In this document: one piece after another, positions 1 through 15,856 of the stretch | How positions within the stretch are numbered: position 1 is the stretch's first letter | Layout of the letters: each line of letters begins with the position of its first letter | Virus genome (UHGV): UHGV-0214057 | DNA length: 15,856 bases | Direction: 5' to 3' (one strand) | From: a virus | Notes under the pieces: generated by a model | What the model saw: the letters and a program-made list of their open reading frames with translations, nothing else | The model's database searches: none | What the model was told of the DNA's origin: nothing | Program-made: the position numbers and the translations under genes

Positions 1-139
1 AGTAATACTCCGGGTTGCTGGTGGTGCTGATAACTGCGCCTTCTCCATCCGACGGCTTCACCACCACAGGTGTGGTGACATCACCTTCCGCCGCAATGGC
101 CTGCATCAGGGTATAAGGCCAGATGGTGGAAAGAACCAT
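1..139 (-). CDS. Partial ORF (N-terminus in window, continues past left edge) with a DUF1737-like motif; function unknown
   Basis: Minus-strand ATG at 139..137; my translation reads MVLSTIWPYTLMQAIAAEGDVTTPVVVKPSDGEGAVISTTSNPEYY with no stop to the window edge. The PYTLMQA-A-EGD motif matches the N-domain of the adjacent + strand esterase (PYTLMQAVAIEGD, nt 265-303). Not in the ORF track because it is truncated. Confidence 0.3.
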   Translation of the reverse strand, partial: MVLSTIWPYTLMQAIAAEGDVTTPVVVKPSDGEGAVISTTSNPEYY

Positions 140-1991
140 GGCATTTAAACACTATGATGTTGTCAGGGCGGCGTCGCCGTCAGACCTTGCGGAAAAGCTG
201 ACACACAAACTGAAAGAGGGCTGGCAGCCATATGGCGGACCGGTTGCCATTACGCCGTACACACTGATGCAGGCGGTGGCTATTGAAGGAGATCCACAGG
301 TCGGCCCTTCATCTGAGCCGGACTGGTTCTACGTGGTTGTGCTTGCCGGACAGTCCAACGGCATGGCCTACGGTGAAGGGCTTCCGTTACCGGATTCTTA
401 CGATGCTCCGGATCCGCGCATTAAACAGCTGGCGCGCCGCAGCACGGTAACTCCGGGTGGAGAGAGTTGTACGTATAACGACATCATCCCGGCTGACCAC
501 TGTCTGCATGATGTGCAGGATATGAGTACGCTGAATCATCCGAAGGCAGACCTGAGCAAAGGGCAGTACGGCTGTGTCGGCCAGGGCTTACATATTGCCA
601 AAAAACTGCTCCCGTATATCCCGAATAACGCGGGGATCCTGCTGGTACCATGCTGTCGTGGTGGTTCGGCATTCACCCAGGGCGCGGAGGGGACATTCAG
701 TGCGGACGCGGGGGCCAGCCAGGATTCGGCACGCTGGGGTGTGGGTAAACCGCTATATCAGGACCTGATTGCGCGCACTAAAGCTGCATTACAGAAGAAC
801 CCGAAAAATGTGTTGCTGGCGGTGTGCTGGATGCAGGGCGAATTTGACATGAGCGCTGCCACCTACGCACAGCAACCGGACCTGTTCACGGCCATGCTGA
901 AGCAGTTCCGTACTGACCTTTCCGGATTTAACGCGCAGTGCCATGGCGGCAGTGCTGCAGTTGTACCGTGGATTTGTGGTGACACGACGTATTACTGGAA
1001 AAATACATACGCTACCCAGTACGACACCGTGTACGGAGGGTATAAAAACAGGGAGAGTGAGGGCGTTTATTTTGTGCCCTTCATGACAGACGGTAACGGC
1101 GTCAATACCGCCACTAACGCACCGGCAGAAGATCCGGATATTCCGGCATCAGGATATTACGGTGCGGCATCGAGAACGAATGGAAACCAGGTATCATCAA
1201 ACCGCCCGACACATTTCAGTTCATGGGCGCGCAGGAGCATTATTCCGGATCGTATGGCAACCGCTATTCTGAACGCAGCCGGGCGCACCTCAGCCTTCAT
1301 CAGTGGTAAGGCACCGGAAATCAAACCCTCGCCCGGCGTCGACACGCCATCGGGGCCGTCTGAAGATGCATCCGTACGCACAATCTCCCTGTTGCCGACA
1401 GCCGGAGATGCTGCTGCGCAGGGCTGGAGCATTAAGAATGGCGGAATTCAGTTGTCAGATGGTGTATTTAAGATCACCAAGCAGAGCAATAAAGCCTGGT
1501 CCCTGACGCGCCCGGTGGATGACGCAGTCTCCCTGCTGACACGGGGTGGCAGACTGAGCTGTAAGTTTCGACTGTCAGGCGCACTGACCAACAACCAGTT
1601 CGGTCTGGGAATTTATCTGTATACCGATGTAGCGTTACCTGACGTCGTGGCGATGACCGGGACTGGTAACCCGTTCCTGATGTCGTTCTTCACCCAGACC
1701 ACAGACGGCAAACTGAATCTGATGCATCACAAGAAAGCCGGAAACACAAAGTTGGGCGAGTTCGGGAATTACAGTAACGACTGGCAGACGCTGGAGCTGG
1801 TGTTCACCGCCGGCAGTGCCACGGTTACTCCGAAACTGAATGGAGTGGCTGGCCCGGCATTCCAGGTCATAAAAGACAGTCTGACAGTGGGACTAAATGC
1901 ACTGACGCTGACGGATATTACCAAAAATGCAACGTATGGCGTTGAGATAGAAAGTCTGGTGCTGGAGATAAATGCACCGGTATCATCATAA
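123..1991 (+). CDS. nanS-p: Prophage sialate O-acetylesterase, NanS-p-like (DUF1737-like N-domain, SGNH/SASA esterase domain, C-terminal beta-rich domain)
   Basis: 622-aa ORF. The GQSNG block (VVVLAGQSNGMAYGEG) is typical of the SGNH/SASA esterase family; the N-terminus MAFKHYDVV...PYTLMQA resembles the DUF1737 domain; position immediately upstream of a 933W-type holin matches Stx-phage architecture (established knowledge). Start may be ATG 138 rather than 123. Confidence 0.75.
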   Translation: MVERTMAFKHYDVVRAASPSDLAEKLTHKLKEGWQPYGGPVAITPYTLMQAVAIEGDPQVGPSSEPDWFYVVVLAGQSNGMAYGEGLPLPDSYDAPDPRIKQLARRSTVTPGGESCTYNDIIPADHCLHDVQDMSTLNHPKADLSKGQYGCVGQGLHIAKKLLPYIPNNAGILLVPCCRGGSAFTQGAEGTFSADAGASQDSARWGVGKPLYQDLIARTKAALQKNPKNVLLAVCWMQGEFDMSAATYAQQPDLFTAMLKQFRTDLSGFNAQCHGGSAAVVPWICGDTTYYWKNTYATQYDTVYGGYKNRESEGVYFVPFMTDGNGVNTATNAPAEDPDIPASGYYGAASRTNGNQVSSNRPTHFSSWARRSIIPDRMATAILNAAGRTSAFISGKAPEIKPSPGVDTPSGPSEDASVRTISLLPTAGDAAAQGWSIKNGGIQLSDGVFKITKQSNKAWSLTRPVDDAVSLLTRGGRLSCKFRLSGALTNNQFGLGIYLYTDVALPDVVAMTGTGNPFLMSFFTQTTDGKLNLMHHKKAGNTKLGEFGNYSNDWQTLELVFTAGSATVTPKLNGVAGPAFQVIKDSLTVGLNALTLTDITKNATYGVEIESLVLEINAPVSS

Positions 1992-2075: not shown

Positions 2076-2107
2076 AGCCATCAGTACTTAACTGGTGGCT
2101 TTTTTTA
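2076..2107 (+). terminator. Rho-independent terminator-like hairpin between esterase and holin
   Basis: AGCCATCAG (2076-2084), 7-nt loop, CTGGTGGCT (2092-2100), then TTTTTTT (2101-2107). Confidence 0.45.
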
Positions 2108-2141
2108 TTGTTGTCAGCTTCCGGATAACGGGAGACGGGGT

Positions 2142-2357
2142 ATGTACCAGATGGAAAAAATCACAACAGGTGTGTCATACACCACGTCAGCGGTGGGAAC
2201 GGGCTACTGGTTCCTGCAGTTGCTGGACAGGGTTTCCCCGTCTCAGTGGGCGGCAATAGGCGTGCTGGGGAGTCTGCTGTTTGGGCTGCTGACGTACCTG
2301 ACTAACCTGTATTTCAAAATCAAAGAGGACCGGCGTAAGGCGGCGCGGGGAGAGTAA
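2142..2357 (+). CDS. S: Class II holin (pinholin), 933W/21 S-type, 71 aa
   Basis: [71 protein letters not shown] closely matches the Stx-phage S holin as I recall it. Dual-start motif Met1/Met4, two TM segments, charged C-tail; GGAGACGGGG ribosome-binding site upstream of ATG 2142. The track ORF from 2064 is an in-frame upstream extension. Confidence 0.85.
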
Positions 2358-2358
2358 A

Positions 2359-3252
2359 GTGATGAATAAAAAATATGAACTGGTTGTTAAGGGGATAAAT
2401 AATTACGGGGGTAAGGTTACTGTTACTGTGAAGCCGGAAGGTGACGGGCAAGCGTCGCTGTTGTTGCCAGATGTGGCGATTAGTCTTGACCGTACTGAAG
2501 GTGCCACGCTGGAGTTTTACGAAGCTGAGGCGAAAAAGCAGGCGAAGCAGTTTTTCATGGATGTTGCTGCTGGGTTATGTGAATGGAACGAACCGTTGCC
2601 GGAAAAGCGCCCCGTAATTTTAGAGGCGCAGGATGTGTTGATAACCTACAAAGGAAAGCTACCGGGAAGAATTACTTGTTCTCTGAAGATGCCGCCGTCA
2701 ACACTGCGGTCAGAAAAAGATGATGTTGAATCACGTATTGAAAAACTGGAGAGCTACGTCGTTGAGCTGAATAAGAAATGGTCGATATTGGTGCCTTCTG
2801 GCGATGAAAAGCAGTTTGCTGCGTTTGACGATTATTGTCGGAAAGTGATGAGCAGAAATCTCGCAGAGTGTTTCAGTATTCATAATGATAATTTCAGTGA
2901 GCTGGAATGGGAGTGTAACCGGCCATCCTTTGTTGTATCCGGTGATGCTGGGAAAATAACCATCTCAGAAAATGGGAAAGTAACACCTCCATCGCACCAG
3001 CACAGTGAGGGGCTCATTGAATTTGCCATTGATTACCTGAAGAACAATAAAAAGCAGGGGCTGATGAAGCGCGTTGGCCGTTGCATGGGATATCTTCAGG
3101 TAGCCGCTGAGATTGAAGCGCTGGCCAGTGGTGCTGATAAGGATGCAATTGTGCGGGAGGCTCTTCTTCGTGATTTTAATACTCCACCCTTTAAAAAAGT
3201 GCCGGCTTACTGGCTTCATCCGGGGCTGACTTATCTTAAAGTGCGTATTTAG
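2359..3252 (+). CDS. Hypothetical protein, 297 aa, no recognisable domain; moron between holin and endolysin
   Basis: Uninterrupted ORF beginning GTG 2359 / ATG 2362, 2-5 nt after the holin stop (TAA 2355-2357), with GGAGAG upstream: looks translationally coupled. Visibly more AT-rich than flanking genes. No TM segment or signal peptide evident. Confidence 0.65.
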   Translation: MMNKKYELVVKGINNYGGKVTVTVKPEGDGQASLLLPDVAISLDRTEGATLEFYEAEAKKQAKQFFMDVAAGLCEWNEPLPEKRPVILEAQDVLITYKGKLPGRITCSLKMPPSTLRSEKDDVESRIEKLESYVVELNKKWSILVPSGDEKQFAAFDDYCRKVMSRNLAECFSIHNDNFSELEWECNRPSFVVSGDAGKITISENGKVTPPSHQHSEGLIEFAIDYLKNNKKQGLMKRVGRCMGYLQVAAEIEALASGADKDAIVREALLRDFNTPPFKKVPAYWLHPGLTYLKVRI

Positions 3253-3288
3253 TGGGCCAGGGACAGCGGCTGAATATTTAATATATCC

Positions 3289-3822
3289 ATGAACACCAAA
3301 ATCAAATACGGCCTGTCGGCTGCCGTTCTGGCGCTGATTGCCGCTGGTGCGCCTGCGCCTGACATTCTCGACCAGTTTCTGGATGAAAAGGAAGGCAACC
3401 ACACCACAGCATACCGTGATGGTGCAGGTATCTGGACCATCTGCCGTGGTGCCATCATGGTGGATGGCAAACCTGTCGTTCCGGGCATGAAGTTGTCGAA
3501 GGAAAAATGCGACCAGGTTAACGCCATTGAGCGTGATAAAGCGCTGGCGTGGGTGGAGAAAAACATCAGAGTGCCGCTGACCGAACCCCAGAAAGCGGGG
3601 ATCGCGTCATTCTGTCCGTACAACATTGGTCCCGGTAAGTGTTTCCCGTCGACGTTTTACAGACGAATTAATGCTGGTGATCGAAAAGGTGCCTGCGAAG
3701 CGATTCGCTGGTGGATTAAGGACGGTGGCAGAGACTGCCGTATTCGTTCAAACAACTGTTACGGTCAGGTATCCCGTCGTGACCAGGAGAGCGCGCTGGC
3801 GTGCTGGGGTATCGACAGATAA
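3289..3822 (+). CDS. R: SAR endolysin (T4-lysozyme-like / GH24 family, signal-arrest-release N-terminus)
   Basis: 177 aa; N-terminal weakly hydrophobic Gly/Ala-rich SAR segment (YGLSAAVLALIAAGAPAP) followed by the E-D-T catalytic region (EGNHTTAYRDGAGIWTICRG); near-identical to the Stx-phage R as I recall it. Confidence 0.85.
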   Translation: MNTKIKYGLSAAVLALIAAGAPAPDILDQFLDEKEGNHTTAYRDGAGIWTICRGAIMVDGKPVVPGMKLSKEKCDQVNAIERDKALAWVEKNIRVPLTEPQKAGIASFCPYNIGPGKCFPSTFYRRINAGDRKGACEAIRWWIKDGGRDCRIRSNNCYGQVSRRDQESALACWGIDR

Positions 3823-3911
3823 GCAGAATATTTTGCTGAAAAATGAGGAATGGCCACGCGGGCGGATAACACGAAATCCTGCGAACTGGCGAAACGTAAG
3901 TGAATAAAAGT

Positions 3912-3951
3912 AAAAACCCCGTTTGTTGGCACCAAGCGAGGTTTTGTGTTT
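3912..3951 (+). terminator. Hairpin followed by a U-rich tract after R (possible terminator or RNA structure)
   Basis: AAAAACCCCG ... CGAGGTTTT stem with inner TTGG/CCAA pairing, followed by GTGTTTCT. A-rich on the 5' side, so it could act in both directions. Confidence 0.3.
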
Positions 3952-3979
3952 CTGACCTTGAGTAAGGCAAGGGAGAACA

Positions 3980-4161
3980 TGGCGAAGTGTAAACGAATTC
4001 TGTTGAGGTTGACTATGAAAAATGACCTTGAACTGAAAGCGCCTGTAACTGATGACATCAGCAGAGCACTGGCTTTTGCCATTAAGTGGGTGGCGGTCGG
4101 TGTTGCTGTGTCCCCGATGCTGTATGGGCTGGCAAAACTGGTCATTGCGTTGAAATCGTGA
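3980..4161 (+). CDS. Small protein (about 60 aa) with a C-terminal hydrophobic segment; function unknown
   Basis: Strong ribosome-binding site AAGGGAGAAC 5 nt before ATG 3980. Product [60 protein letters not shown] has a tail-anchor-like TM segment. Alternative start ATG 4014. Confidence 0.45.
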
Positions 4162-4175
4162 AGGGAGGATTAAGC

Positions 4176-4307
4176 ATGTCAGACAAACTCATAACGCTGG
4201 CGAAGATCCTCTGTGTAATTGTCGGCATTTCATTTTCACTAATGCTGGTTGCTCTTTTTCTTTCCATGGCCTGGATGATGTTGTCTTCGTCGGGGTTGCT
4301 GGGGTGA
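4176..4307 (+). CDS. Small single-pass membrane protein (43 aa); function unknown
   Basis: Ribosome-binding site AAGGGAGGA 6 nt before ATG 4176. Product [43 protein letters not shown] has one central TM segment. Stop TGA 4305-4307 overlaps the Rz GTG start (GTGA). Confidence 0.45.
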
Positions 4308-4777
4308 ACATAAACCGAATGCTTTCCGCGTTTATCGTTATTCTGCTGGTGGCCTGTGGTGCGCTGTGGATGGCAACAGACCATTACCGTGATAACGCGA
4401 TTACCTACAAAGCGCAGCGCGATAACAAAGCCAGTGAACTGAAGCTGGCGAACGCAACCATTACTGATATGCAGGTGCGCCAGCGCGATGTTGCTGCGCT
4501 CGATGCAAAATACTCGAGGGAATTAGCCGATGCGAGAGCTGAAAATGAAACTCTTCGCGCTGACGTTGCCGCTGGTCGTAAGCGCCTGCGGATCAACGCC
4601 ACCTGTCCAGGCTCCGTGCGTGAAGCCCCCACCACCTCCGGCGTGGATAATGCAACCGGCCCCCAACTGGCAGACACCGTTACACGGGATTATTTCACCC
4701 TCAGAGAGCGGCTGATGACGATGCAGAAGCAACTGGAAGGGGCACAGGACTATATCCGCACTCAGTGCCTGAAATAA
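4304..4777 (+). CDS. Rz: i-spanin Rz (inner-membrane spanin subunit)
   Basis: N-terminal TM segment, then [15 protein letters not shown]...[11 protein letters not shown]...[19 protein letters not shown], strongly similar to lambda Rz. Start is GTG 4304 or ATG 4319. Confidence 0.8.
4530..4715 (+). CDS. Rz1: o-spanin Rz1 (outer-membrane lipoprotein) embedded in the +1 frame of Rz
   Basis: [17 protein letters not shown] lipobox (cleavage before Cys), followed by the proline-rich [30 protein letters not shown], which matches lambda Rz1. Lies entirely inside Rz, as in lambda. Start is ATG 4530 or 4545. Confidence 0.75.
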
Positions 4778-5127
4778 GTTTTGTTGATGCGCCGTATCGT
4801 CGCTGTATTCCCTCATTAACAGAGACCGCAGCCCGACAGGGAGACTCCTCTGCGCGAGTGTGCGGGGATAATCAAAAACGATACACACCGGGGTTTACCG
4901 CGTTAACGGAGCGCGGCGTTGTCCCCTCATAGTCGCCTGTCCGGTGCGATGGTGGAAGAAGCCGGATGTTTATCACTATTAATTGATGACACAGAAATGG
5001 ATTCATTGAATTTCAGCACGTTTTTGTATTCGTGTTATTGAACATCTGTTTATTTTACTTTTAACATATTGATAATAAAAAGAGCTGTAAATCTTTAGAT
5101 GAGTCGATTTTGTCCGGGGAAGTTCAA

Positions 5128-5639: not shown

Positions 5640-5975
5640 CGTTAATTTGACGCAGATCAATTAATACGATACCTGCGTCATAATTGATTATTTCTCGTGG
5701 TTTGATGGCGTACACACATGTTGTGATAAACCTTATATAGATGATAATCATTATCATTTCGTGGGTCCTTTCCGGCGATCCGACCGGTTACGGGGCGGCG
5801 ACCTCGCGGGTTTTCGCTATTTATGAAAATTTTCCGGGGAAAATCATGTCGGTACTTCTCGAACATAACTATTTGTTTTTTCTAATATCGAATCCGTAAA
5901 AGGTCCGACATGAAAACGCCTAAAAAAGTCATTTTCGGGCACTTTCATGTCGGCCCCTGTATTTATTGTGAGACT
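5640..5975 (+). other. cos: cos site: cosQ-proximal conserved sequence, cosN (12-nt cohesive end GGGCGGCGACCT at 5793-5804) and cosB
   Basis: 5762-5840 (GGGTCCTTTCCGGCGATCCGACCGGTTACGGGGCGGCGACCTCGCGGGTTTTCGCTATTTATGAAAATTTTCCGG) is near-identical to the joined right and left ends of phage lambda as I recall them. Nu1 starts 189 nt after the first cosN base (191 in lambda). Confidence 0.8.
5845..5953 (+). repeat. cosB R-element candidates: three copies of the octamer CATGTCGG (5845-5852 direct, 5905-5912 inverted, 5946-5953 direct)
   Basis: Direct / inverted / direct arrangement with an A/T-rich spacer between the first and second copy mirrors the lambda R3-I1-R2-R1 layout, but the repeat sequence is not lambda's. 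Confidence 0.5.
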
Positions 5976-5980
5976 GTTTC

Positions 5981-6500
5981 ATGAAGGTTAATAAAAAGAA
6001 ACTTGCCGAAATTTTCAACGTGGATCCGCGAACGATTGAACGCTGGCAGTCTCAGGGACTCCCTTGCGTCTCCGGAGGTGGTAAGGGCGTTGAATCTGTA
6101 TTTGATACCGCCATGGCAATTCAGTGGTATGCGCAGAGGGAAGCTGATATCGAAAATGAAAAACTCCGTAAAGAGGTTGAGGATTACAGGGCTGCCAGTG
6201 AGGCAGATCTCCAGCCTGGGACTATTGAGTACGAACGCCATCGACTTACGCGTGCGCAGGCCGACGCACAGGAGCTGAAGAATGCCAGAGACTCCGCAGA
6301 GGTGGTGGAAACCGCATTCTGTACTTTCGTGCTGTCACGGATCGCAGGTGAAATTGCCAGTATTCTTGACGGGATCCCTCTCTCGGTACAGCGGCGTTTT
6401 CCGGAACTGGAAAACCGACATGTTGATTTCCTGAAACGGGATATCATCAAAGCCATGAACAAAGCAGCCGCGCTGGATGAACTGATACCGGGGTTGCTGA

Positions 6501-6526
<26 letters not shown>
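5981..6526 (+). CDS. nu1: Terminase small subunit
   Basis: 181 aa. The C-terminal roughly 110 residues ([58 protein letters not shown]...) are essentially identical to lambda gpNu1 as recalled. The N-terminal DNA-binding domain ([28 protein letters not shown]...) is divergent and, I believe, phage-21-like. Confidence 0.9.
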
Positions 6527-14734: not shown

Positions 14735-15481
14735 ATGGCAACACCAAATCCCCTTGAGCCGGTAAAAGGTGCCGGTACCACTCTGTGGGTTTACAACGGC
14801 AAGGGTGATGCTTATGCAAACCCGTTGTCAGACGATGACTGGCAGCGACTGGCTAAGGTGAAGGATCTGACGCCGGGCGAGATGACGGCAGAATCCTACG
14901 ATGATAACTACCTGGATGATGAAGACGCGGACTGGACCGCGACCGGGCAGGGACAGAAATCTGCAGGTGATACCAGTTTTACGCTGGCCTGGAAACCGGG
15001 AGAGGAAGGCCAGAAAGGGCTTATAGGCTGGTTTGAAAGCGGCGATGTCCGGGCCTATAAAATCCGTTTTCCGAATGGCACGGTGGATGTGTTTCGTGGC
15101 TGGGTCAGCAGTATCGGTAAGGCCGTGACGGGGAAAGAAGTGATCACCCGCACGGTGAAAGTCACTAACGTGGGTAAACCTTCTGTAGCGGAAGAACGCA
15201 GCAAAATTACGCCGGTCACTGCGATTAAGGTAACGCCGACAGGTACGGTTGAAAAAGGGAAAACAACCACCCTGACCGTTACTGTGGAACCGGAAAATGC
15301 AACGGATAAGACATTCAGGGCGATTTCCGCCGATCCATCAAAAGCCACCATTAGCGTGAAAGATATGACGATTACTGTGACGGGGGTTAAGGATGGAAAA
15401 GTCAGCATCCCTGTGATTTCCGGTAATGGTCAGTTTGCTGCGGTGGCTGAAATTACCGTTAATAATGTGCCGGGTGGCTAA
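14735..15481 (+). CDS. V: Major tail tube protein V with C-terminal Ig-like domain
   Basis: 248 aa, strong match to lambda gpV ([12 protein letters not shown]...[23 protein letters not shown]...) with the C-terminal Big_2-like region. Confidence 0.9.
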
Positions 15482-15499
15482 AGAGCTGAGAGATAAGCG

Positions 15500-15856
15500 A
15501 TGTTCCTGAAAACAGAACAATTTGAATATAACGGTGTATCCGTCACGCTTTCTGAGCTGTCTGCGCTGCAGCGTATTGAGCATCTTGCCCTCCTGAAACG
15601 GCGGGCAGAAGAGGCTGAAGCCAGCGGCAACCTGCAGGTGAGTGTGGAAGATCTTGTCAGAACCGGCGCGTTTCTGGTGGCGATGTCCCTGTGGCATAAC
15701 CATCCACAGAAAACGCAGTCACCGTCAATGAATGAGGCCGTGATGAAGCGCCGTCGAAGACTTTCCCGCAGAAAAATCATCATCAGTCAGCGTGTTATTT
15801 TTCGCCACTTCAGTAATATCAGTATCCGGACGAACAGCTTCGATCATCCCGGACAG
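15500..15856 (+). CDS. G: Tail assembly chaperone G: the first 81 codons are lambda-G-like; beyond about 15743 the frame stays open but loses homology (gene probably disrupted)
   Basis: My translation from ATG 15500: MFLKTEQFEYNGVSVTLSELSALQRIEHLALLKRRAEEAEASGNLQVSVEDLVRTGAFLVAMSLWHNHPQKTQSPSMNEAV matches lambda gpG residues 1-81; the continuation MKRRRRLSRRKIII... does not. Absent from the ORF track because there is no stop in the window. Confidence 0.55.
   Translation, partial: MFLKTEQFEYNGVSVTLSELSALQRIEHLALLKRRAEEAEASGNLQVSVEDLVRTGAFLVAMSLWHNHPQKTQSPSMNEAVMKRRRRLSRRKIIISQRVIFRHFSNISIRTNSFDHPGQ
15725..15856 (-). CDS. C-terminal fragment of a G-like tail assembly chaperone on the minus strand, including the G-T frameshift slippery heptamer
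   Basis: Reverse-complement translation from the window edge reads LSGMIEAVRPDTDITEVAKNNTLTDDDFSAGKSSTALHHGLIH*. The LSGM and SAGK-ST blocks align with the lambda gpG C-terminus (...RLSGMYEFVVNNAPEQTEDAGPAEPVSAGKCSTVS). Minus-strand GGGAAAG (complement of 15761-15767) is the conserved slippery site. Confidence 0.4.
   Translation of the reverse strand: MSGMIEAVRPDTDITEVAKNNTLTDDDFSAGKSSTALHHGLIH

What the first reader, a model, noticed from the sequence alone, without database searches (positions are those of the whole stretch)
15725..15856. Abrupt junction inside tail gene G: lambda-like 5' part followed by the reverse complement of a G-like 3' end
Forward gene G matches lambda gpG for 81 codons (to about 15742) and then loses homology. 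From about 15751 to the window edge it is the minus strand that encodes a convincing gpG C-terminus (LSGM..., SAGK-ST) and carries the GGGAAAG slippery heptamer used for the G-T programmed -1 frameshift. Head-to-tail reading is therefore impossible: either an inversion or rearrangement breakpoint lies at about 15743-15750, or two lambdoid segments in opposite orientation are joined here (including the possibility of an assembly chimera). If real, G/GT chaperone production and hence tail assembly would be disrupted, making this a defective prophage.
Basis: partly seen in the sequence, partly recalled or inferred. Interest (0 to 1): 0.6.

Follow-up and report, generated by a model that had tools for sequence, protein, structure and literature searches.

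The report
Inverted scrap glued onto contig end
The strand flip inside tail gene G is really in the sequence, but the same kind of short flipped piece sits at the other end of the window too, so it is most likely a sequencing or assembly artefact at the ends of a contig and not a broken prophage.

Summary
Window 15500-15748 is codons 1-83 of a lambdoid prophage gpG. It is 100% identical to the E. coli CFT073 allele. Window 15749-15856 is the exact reverse complement of codons 142 back to 107 of that same allele (108/108), and GGGAAAG lies on the minus strand at 15761-15767. The junction is blunt, with 0 nt of microhomology and no flanking inverted repeats.

No complete E. coli genome (0 of 5426), phage record or searched public contig contains the junction.

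The other end of the window has the same defect. Window 1-119 is the reverse complement of nt 235-117 of a sialate-esterase allele, joined bluntly to position -18 of the esterase gene. The 15.6 kb between the two junctions is an intact late operon, collinear with reference prophages.

Both flipped pieces are about one read long (108 and 119 nt) and come from 134-177 nt away. Both have the geometry of two inward-facing mates written end to end, or of a fold-back chimeric fragment. The left end also switches allele inside a 36-nt identical stretch, and the right end stops next to a known G polymorphism. Both fit a small-k de Bruijn contig.

Verdict: a contig-end artefact (about 0.78). A genuine 177-bp inversion or fold-back duplication cannot be excluded without the reads.

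The parts
15500..15748 (+). 5' part of tail assembly chaperone gene G, codons 1-83, in normal context after V
   Evidence: 100% identical to CFT073 gpG nt 1-249. Pfam PF06894 matches residues 1-83 only. 430 E. coli records match at 99% or more.
15748..15749 (.). Right junction: blunt strand switch between G nt 249 and the complement of G nt 426
   Evidence: Base-by-base extension stops exactly here on both sides, with 0 nt of microhomology. No inverted repeat lies at either breakpoint in the reference gene. The junction 40-mer is absent from viral, genome and metagenome contigs.
15749..15856 (-). Reverse complement of G codons 107-142 (nt 319-426), running to the window edge
   Evidence: 108/108 identical to CFT073 gpG on the opposite strand. 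E = 2e-48 against phage records. The window stops at nt 319, directly beside nt 318, which is polymorphic between the CFT073-type and ATCC 25922-type alleles.
15761..15767 (-). GGGAAAG slippery heptamer of the G-T -1 frameshift, present on the minus strand only
   Evidence: Pattern search. It corresponds to nt 408-414 of reference G.
1..119 (-). Left terminal piece: reverse complement of nt 117-235 of an ATCC 25922-type prophage sialate-esterase (SASA/DUF6645) allele
   Evidence: Identical over window 1-119 to the ATCC 25922 allele on the opposite strand. It differs from the window's own copy of that region at 254-372 (47 nt at about 70%, then unalignable).
119..120 (.). Left junction: blunt strand switch between the complement of esterase nt 117 and position -18 upstream of the esterase ATG
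   Evidence: No complete E. coli genome covers window 1-420 in one place. The junction 41-mer is absent from viral, metagenome and genome contigs.
120..172 (+). 53-nt stretch identical to the ATCC 25922-type allele (-18 to +35). Its last 36 nt (137-172) are also identical to the natural allele of the window's esterase gene, so the allele switch lies inside it.
   Evidence: Exact shared run 120-172. All 7 fetched public contigs carrying the identical 1854-nt esterase gene have a different upstream sequence and match the window only from 137.
138..1991 (+). Intact prophage sialate O-acetylesterase-like gene (DUF1737 + SASA + DUF6645), first gene of the collinear interior
   Evidence: Pfam domains. 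1854/1854 nt identical to genes on 7 public contigs.

Best explanation
The window is most likely a whole short-read contig from an E. coli lambdoid prophage late region, running from the esterase gene to tail gene G. Each of its two ends carries a spurious read-length extension.

At each end a piece of 108 or 119 nt, taken from the opposite strand 134-177 nt away in the same gene, is joined bluntly to the true sequence. This is the geometry produced in two ways. One is that the 3' end of a read is followed directly by the 5' start of its inward-facing mate, that is, mates written end to end. The implied fragments are about 250-330 nt for 100-150-nt reads. The other is a fold-back (inverted) chimeric library fragment.

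A de Bruijn assembler with a small k then attached these junction k-mers where the true path becomes ambiguous. Several lambdoid prophages in one sample share these genes, so ambiguity is expected there.

What is shown:
- The exact coordinates, the orientation and the blunt ends of both junctions.
- Their absence from public genomes and contigs.
- The collinear interior.
- The allele switch inside a 36-nt identical stretch.

What is inferred:
- That the window edges are contig ends.
- That the junctions arose in vitro or in silico.
- Which of the two artefact routes produced them.

On this reading the prophage's real G-T region is ordinary, and nothing is implied about tail assembly.
For: 1. 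Both ends carry the same anomaly, 108 nt and 119 nt from the window edges. The 15.6 kb between them shows no other orientation switch against three reference prophages.
2. Both pieces come from within 177 and 134 nt of their junction on the opposite strand. Adjacent artefact chimeric fragments are reported to join partners 50-200 bp apart (PMC8458033). More than 85% of MDA chimeras are inverted with an intervening deletion (PMC1855051).
3. Both junctions are blunt and both have inward-facing read-pair geometry. This last point is my inference from the coordinates.
4. Neither junction occurs in 5426 complete E. coli genomes, 50,697 phage records or the viral, metagenome and genome contig collections.
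5. Both halves of G are 100% identical to an intact allele, and the major late-gene ORFs have normal lengths. There is therefore no sign of decay.
6. The left inverted piece and the 17 nt after it belong to a different esterase allele than the body. The switch lies inside a 36-nt identical stretch, as expected from a k<=36 de Bruijn graph.
7. The right edge of the window lies directly beside a site that differs between two common G alleles (nt 318). This looks like a graph branch point.
Against: - The source contig and its reads were not found, so it is not proven that the window edges are contig ends.
- Polymerase-driven fold-back artefacts usually show a few nt of microhomology (over 70% of MDA junctions; short reverse-complementary regions). 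Both junctions here have none. That favours mate concatenation or ligation, for which I have no direct evidence.
- A strict unitig would not run through the branch points this model needs, so some assembler heuristic has to be assumed.
- The two right-hand breakpoints both fall on codon boundaries (chance 1/9), and the model does not explain this.
Confidence: 0.78

Rival explanations
1. A genuine, very recent rearrangement of G in the source DNA. It would be either a simple inversion of exactly codons 84-142 (177 bp) or a fold-back inverted duplication with a 177-bp spacer. It would have arisen by homology-independent strand switching or break-and-rejoin. G would keep its length but lose its C-terminal half and the plus-strand slippery site, so no G-T fusion would be made and tails would not assemble.
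For: The window sequence equals the prefix of the simple-inversion model exactly. That model gives an open 143-codon ORF ending at the normal stop and has no GGGAAAG on the plus strand. Both sides come from the same allele. Nothing in the window itself contradicts this reading.
Against: - It does not explain why an equivalent blunt inverted junction lies 119 nt from the other window edge.
- The junction is not seen in any of 5426 genomes or in any searched collection.
- There are no inverted repeats and no microhomology to mediate the event.
- There is no sequence decay.
Confidence: 0.12
2. Two different lambdoid prophage segments lie in opposite orientation in a real genome and are joined by illegitimate deletion or inversion. 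P1 G codons 1-83 would converge on another prophage's G, and likewise another prophage's esterase gene would diverge from P1's at the left end.
For: - The left inverted piece belongs to a different allele than the body.
- E. coli genomes often carry several such prophages: a median of 2 and up to 14 places match the G region per genome.
- Some complete genomes hold both esterase alleles, for example FDAARGOS_401.
Against: It needs two independent illegitimate events. Each would have to join homologous genes within 134-177 nt of the homologous position, and each would have to lie about 110 nt from a window edge. Random illegitimate joins would not land so close to the homologous position. The resulting alternating-orientation late regions are not seen in any complete genome.
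Confidence: 0.05
3. A programmed invertible segment (a Gin/Hin/Pin-type switch) that turns G-T production on and off.
For: Only the fact that a segment appears inverted, with in-frame boundaries.
Against: - There are no inverted-repeat crossover sites at the breakpoints.
- The window's major ORFs correspond to ordinary late genes by size, order and the annotation of the reference prophages. Only six were scanned against Pfam, and none is an invertase.
- The inverted orientation is absent from 5426 genomes, although the allele is common.
- The second anomaly at the left end is unrelated to G.
Confidence: 0.01

Closest known systems
Artefact chimeric reads or fragments joining nearby opposite-strand sequence (strand-split or fold-back artefacts of library preparation; inverted chimeras of multiple displacement amplification)
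   Same: The orientation is inverted. The partner lies 134-177 nt away in the same locus, within the 50-200 bp range reported for adjacent artefact fragments (PMC8458033). The form is 'inverted with intervening deletion', which is the predominant MDA chimera type (PMC1855051). Sonication and enzymatic libraries give chimeric reads with cis- and trans-inverted repeat sequence (PMC10908179).
   Different: Those mechanisms prime on a short reverse-complementary stretch, so they normally leave 2-21 nt of microhomology. Both junctions here have none.
Two mates of an inward-facing read pair written one after the other (for example spots stored or dumped unsplit) and then used for k-mer assembly
   Same: The join is blunt, between the 3' end of one read and the 5' start of a read on the opposite strand. 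The implied fragment lengths are about 250-330 nt. The terminal pieces are no longer than a read. This is my inference from the coordinates. That unsplit spots are written joined is my own knowledge and was not tested.
   Different: There is no evidence about how this window's reads were handled. The one pipeline I checked (Logan, PMC12424806) streams reads with fasterq-dump and discards k-mers seen only once. The junction would therefore need at least two supporting spots.
Lambda G / G-T tail assembly chaperone with programmed -1 frameshift
   Same: The forward ORF is a bona fide gpG N-terminal domain. The inverted piece carries the family's GGGAAAG slippery site and the SAGK motif of the prophage allele.
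   Different: In the window the two halves are on opposite strands, so the family's architecture is not present as written. In 430 near-identical genome copies it is intact.
Tandem inversion duplication (snap-back duplication described in Salmonella by Roth and colleagues; from my own knowledge)
   Same: A segment is bounded on one side by a convergent inverted junction and on the other by a divergent one.
   Different: The left inverted piece is a different allele from the body. A duplication of the segment itself cannot give that.

Membership tests
Lambda-type G/G-T tail assembly chaperone locus | N-terminal TAC domain (Pfam PF06894) downstream of the major tail gene V | tested here: met
   PF06894 E = 4e-36 over residues 1-83. 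V lies immediately upstream at 14735-15481.
Lambda-type G/G-T tail assembly chaperone locus | Contiguous full-length G on one strand, with the slippery heptamer GGGAAAG near its 3' end on the coding strand | tested here: not met
   The Pfam match stops at profile position 83 of 126. The heptamer is on the minus strand only, at 15761-15767.
Lambda-type G/G-T tail assembly chaperone locus | T reading frame following G in the -1 frame | not testable with these tools
   The window ends at 15856, before any T sequence, and the source contig was not found.
Site-specific invertible segment (Gin/Hin/Pin type) | Inverted-repeat crossover sites at both ends of the segment | tested here: not met
   There is no inverted repeat at reference positions 3349/3350 and 3526/3527, and 0 nt of microhomology.
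Site-specific invertible segment (Gin/Hin/Pin type) | Both orientations occur among related genomes | tested here: not met
   0 of 5426 complete E. coli genomes and 0 phage records carry the inverted arrangement.
Fold-back / strand-split chimeric artefact | The two parts map to opposite strands of the same locus, tens to a few hundred nt apart | tested here: met
   177 nt at the right junction and 134 nt at the left.
Fold-back / strand-split chimeric artefact | A short reverse-complementary (microhomology) stretch shared by both alignments at the junction | tested here: not met
   0 nt at the right junction. 0 nt at the left against the available alleles, although a 5-nt GATGG match lies 2 nt away.
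Fold-back / strand-split chimeric artefact | Junction supported by few or duplicate reads, while the normal junction is well supported | not testable with these tools
   No reads are available.
Read-pair concatenation artefact | The 3' end of one read abuts the 5' start of an opposite-strand read, facing inwards, at a typical insert distance, with a blunt join | tested here: met
   The coordinates of both junctions fit. The implied fragments are G nt (249-L+1)..426 and esterase -18..(117+L-1), that is about 250-330 nt for L = 100-150.
Tandem inversion duplication | The inverted copies at both ends are copies of the segment itself | tested here: not met
   The left piece is an ATCC 25922-type allele. 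The body's own copy of that region is only about 70% similar over 47 nt and then unalignable.

The most novel reading that the evidence does not exclude
The junction is real in the source DNA. An otherwise intact, recently active lambdoid prophage would then carry a homology-independent inversion of exactly codons 84-142 of G, or a fold-back inverted duplication centred there. This removes the G-T frameshift site from the coding strand. It would be a natural G/G-T null created by a strand-switch event in a phage late operon.
Probability: 0.1. Interest if true: 0.3.

Novelty: not a real feature. Interest (0 to 1): 0.06.

Why it matters
The main value is as a caution. A strand flip within about one read length of a sequence edge should be checked against the other edge, and against reference alleles, before it is read as biology. 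Useful warning signs are a blunt junction and a partner that lies a library-insert distance away. Here the apparent 'defective prophage' disappears, and the prophage late region is an ordinary, intact-looking lambdoid module. If the junction were real, it would be a single-strain loss-of-function rearrangement of limited general interest.

Tried and rejected
- **Finding the source contig.** Exact junction 40- and 41-mers found nothing in viral, genome and metagenome contigs. Exact look-ups of the chimeric forward ORF, the chimeric minus-strand ORF and the V protein also found nothing. I therefore could not see what lies beyond 15856.
- **Inverted repeats or microhomology at the G breakpoints.** None was found at the breakpoints. 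Two imperfect 10-nt pairs lie 26-45 nt inside them and are not in register.
- **A natural esterase allele with an inverted arrangement.** The HS13-1-type allele, whose match begins near nt 127, simply has a divergent 5' region with a 9-nt indel. Rejected.
- **Tandem inversion duplication of the whole 15.6-kb segment.** Rejected because the left inverted piece is a different allele.
- **A codon-aware or synthetic origin.** I first thought all four breakpoints were codon-aligned. On recount only the two G breakpoints are (chance 1/9). The left esterase breakpoint falls inside codon 39. No weight is given to this.
- **Hairpin-telomere or nanopore-type fold-back.** These predict a perfect palindrome with no spacer, which does not fit the 134- and 177-nt offsets.
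- **Logan-style origin.** The paper confirms k = 31 and the removal of singleton k-mers, but it streams reads through fasterq-dump. The origin of the window stays unknown.
- **Repeated canonical k-mers in the window.** None was found for k = 21-55. This fits a de Bruijn contig but is uninformative for 16 kb of unique sequence.

Full report
**What is in the sequence.** Gene G starts at ATG 15500, immediately after a lambda-V-like major tail gene at 14735-15481. Against the E. coli CFT073 prophage, fetched as L001, the window is identical without interruption from 15133 to 15748. Position 15748 is the third base of G codon 83. The next base, 15749, is the complement of the third base of codon 142. 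From there to the last base of the window (15856) the sequence is the exact reverse complement of G nt 426 down to 319, with 108/108 identity. The same inverted match appears in phage records at E = 2e-48.

The minus-strand translation is LSGMIEAVRPDTDITEVAKNNTLTDDDFSAGKSST followed by read-through into antisense G. GGGAAAG lies on the minus strand at 15761-15767 and nowhere on the plus strand of this region. Pfam's gpG family (PF06894) matches the forward ORF over residues 1-83 and profile positions 1-83 of 126. The intact CFT073 protein matches profile positions 1-119.

There is one caveat. The minus-strand peptide is not significantly similar to lambda gpG itself. It is identified only by its exact DNA match to the prophage allele, whose C-terminal tail differs from lambda's.

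**Anatomy of the junction.** The join is blunt. Neither alignment can be extended by a single base across it, so there is no microhomology. The reference gene has no inverted repeat at either breakpoint. If only codons 84-142 were inverted, the window would be the exact prefix of that model. The model gives an open 143-codon ORF that ends at the normal stop but lacks the slippery site on its coding strand. The same 108 nt are equally the start of a fold-back, that is G up to nt 249 followed by the reverse complement of everything up to nt 426. The two models diverge 69 nt beyond the window edge, so the window alone cannot separate them.

**Is it seen elsewhere?** No.
- The 5' part of G with its V flank occurs at 99% identity or more in 430 complete E. 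coli records. None of 5426 genomes has one place covering the junction.
- No phage record covers the junction either.
- A 40-mer across the junction is absent from the viral, species-representative genome and metagenome contig collections.
- The chimeric ORFs on both strands are not on record in the gene-position index.

**The other end of the window has the same defect.** Whole-window searches start matching only at about 120-138, and no genome covers window 1-420 in one place. Window 1-119 is the exact reverse complement of nt 235 down to 117 of a prophage sialate-esterase gene (SASA/DUF6645) of the ATCC 25922 type. Window 120 onwards is position -18 upstream of the esterase ATG (138), reading forwards. 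This junction is also blunt and is also absent from every collection.

Between the two junctions, BLAST against three reference prophages shows only collinear matches. The major ORFs have the normal sizes for esterase, lysozyme, Rz, Nu1, terminase, portal, protease, D, E, FI, FII, Z, U and V. The only two orientation switches in 15.9 kb therefore lie 119 and 108 nt from the two edges. If the window had been cut at random from a real chromosome, this coincidence would be very unlikely. If the window is a contig, it is the expected place for spurious extensions.

**Further signs of assembly.**
- The left inverted piece is not a copy of the window's own esterase gene. The corresponding region at 254-372 is about 70% similar over 47 nt and then unalignable.
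- The 53 nt after the junction (120-172) are identical to the ATCC 25922-type allele.
- The window's esterase gene is 1854/1854 identical to genes on seven fetched public contigs. The index lists the exact protein in 176 blocks of the collection, and the 24 with the longest contigs were read. All seven fetched contigs have a different upstream sequence and match the window only from 137.
- The left end therefore reads as an ATCC-type chimera (1-172) that merges into the body's allele inside a 36-nt identical stretch (137-172). A de Bruijn graph with k<=36 does exactly this. Natural recombination there is also possible, because alleles with this upstream sequence and a similar 5' region exist (locus).
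- At the right edge, the window stops at G nt 319. The ATCC 25922-type G allele differs from the CFT073 type at nt 282, 316, 318 and 425. The edge therefore sits directly beside a known polymorphic site, as a graph path ending at a branch would. I rate this as modest support, with a chance of a few per cent.

**Mechanism.** Both junctions have the same geometry. The 3' end of a stretch on one strand is followed by the 5' start of a stretch on the other strand, and the two face inwards. The implied fragments are G nt (249-L+1)..426 and esterase -18..(117+L-1). That is about 250-330 nt for reads of 100-150 nt.

This is what results when the two mates of an ordinary pair are written end to end. 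It is also the form of a fold-back chimeric fragment. Such artefacts are well described:
- Adjacent artefact chimeric fragments join partners 50-200 bp apart (PMC8458033).
- Sonication and enzymatic libraries give chimeric reads with inverted repeat sequence (PMC10908179).
- More than 85% of MDA chimeras are inverted with an intervening deletion (PMC1855051).

The polymerase-primed routes usually leave 2-21 nt of microhomology, which is missing here. Within the artefact class I therefore lean towards mate concatenation or ligation, but I cannot test this. I checked one large small-k pipeline. Logan uses k = 31, drops k-mers seen only once and streams reads with fasterq-dump. The origin of the window remains unknown.

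**Rivals.**
- A genuine recent inversion or fold-back duplication in G fits the right end by itself. It leaves the left end and the edge positions unexplained.
- Two prophages joined tail to tail and head to head would need two independent illegitimate events. Each would have to fall within 180 nt of the homologous position.
- A tandem inversion duplication is excluded by the allele difference at the left end.
- A programmed invertible switch is excluded. It lacks crossover repeats, no invertase is apparent among the window's late genes, and no second orientation occurs in 5426 genomes.

**Verdict.** The interpretation as a defective prophage is not supported. The best explanation is a pair of contig-end chimeric extensions (about 0.78). 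Reads or a long read across V-G-T would settle the question. Interest is low.

Noticed in passing
window 1-172: The left edge of the window carries a second blunt strand switch. Window 1-119 is the reverse complement of nt 117-235 of an ATCC 25922-type esterase allele and is joined to position -18 of the esterase gene. This became the main argument for an artefact.
   Followed up: yes
window 120-172: The 17 nt upstream of the esterase ATG (120-136) are of the ATCC 25922/MINF_9A type. All seven fetched public contigs with the identical 1854-nt esterase gene have a different upstream sequence. The allele switch lies inside a 36-nt identical stretch (137-172). This could be k-mer-level assembly mixing or natural recombination.
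   Followed up: partly
window 15856 (G nt 319): The window ends directly beside G nt 318. This is one of four sites (282, 316, 318, 425) that distinguish the CFT073-type and ATCC 25922-type gpG alleles. That is where an assembly-graph branch would lie if both alleles were in the sample.
   Followed up: partly
window 14735-15481: The exact 248-aa major tail protein V of this window is not on record in the gene-position index. Its DNA is a patchwork relative to the CFT073, ATCC 25922 and MINF_9A alleles: 100% CFT073-like from 15133, and closer to MINF_9A before about 15132. This could be natural mosaicism or allele mixing by the assembler.
   Followed up: partly
window 2359-3252: This 297-aa ORF has a GTG start, and only its first ~100 residues match DUF1327 (YdfR family). 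Related prophages have a 114-aa DUF1327 protein here. ATCC 25922, which is 99% identical over window 2094-4906, annotates a truncated YdfR pseudogene. It may be a fusion or an insertion in the lysis cassette.
   Followed up: no
window 5897-5961: A 30-nt imperfect inverted repeat (77% complementary, 5-nt spacer) lies just upstream of the Nu1 terminase small-subunit gene (5981-6526). It is presumably part of the cos/terminase-binding region. The window therefore spans cos, so it comes from a prophage or a concatemer and not from a packaged genome.
   Followed up: no
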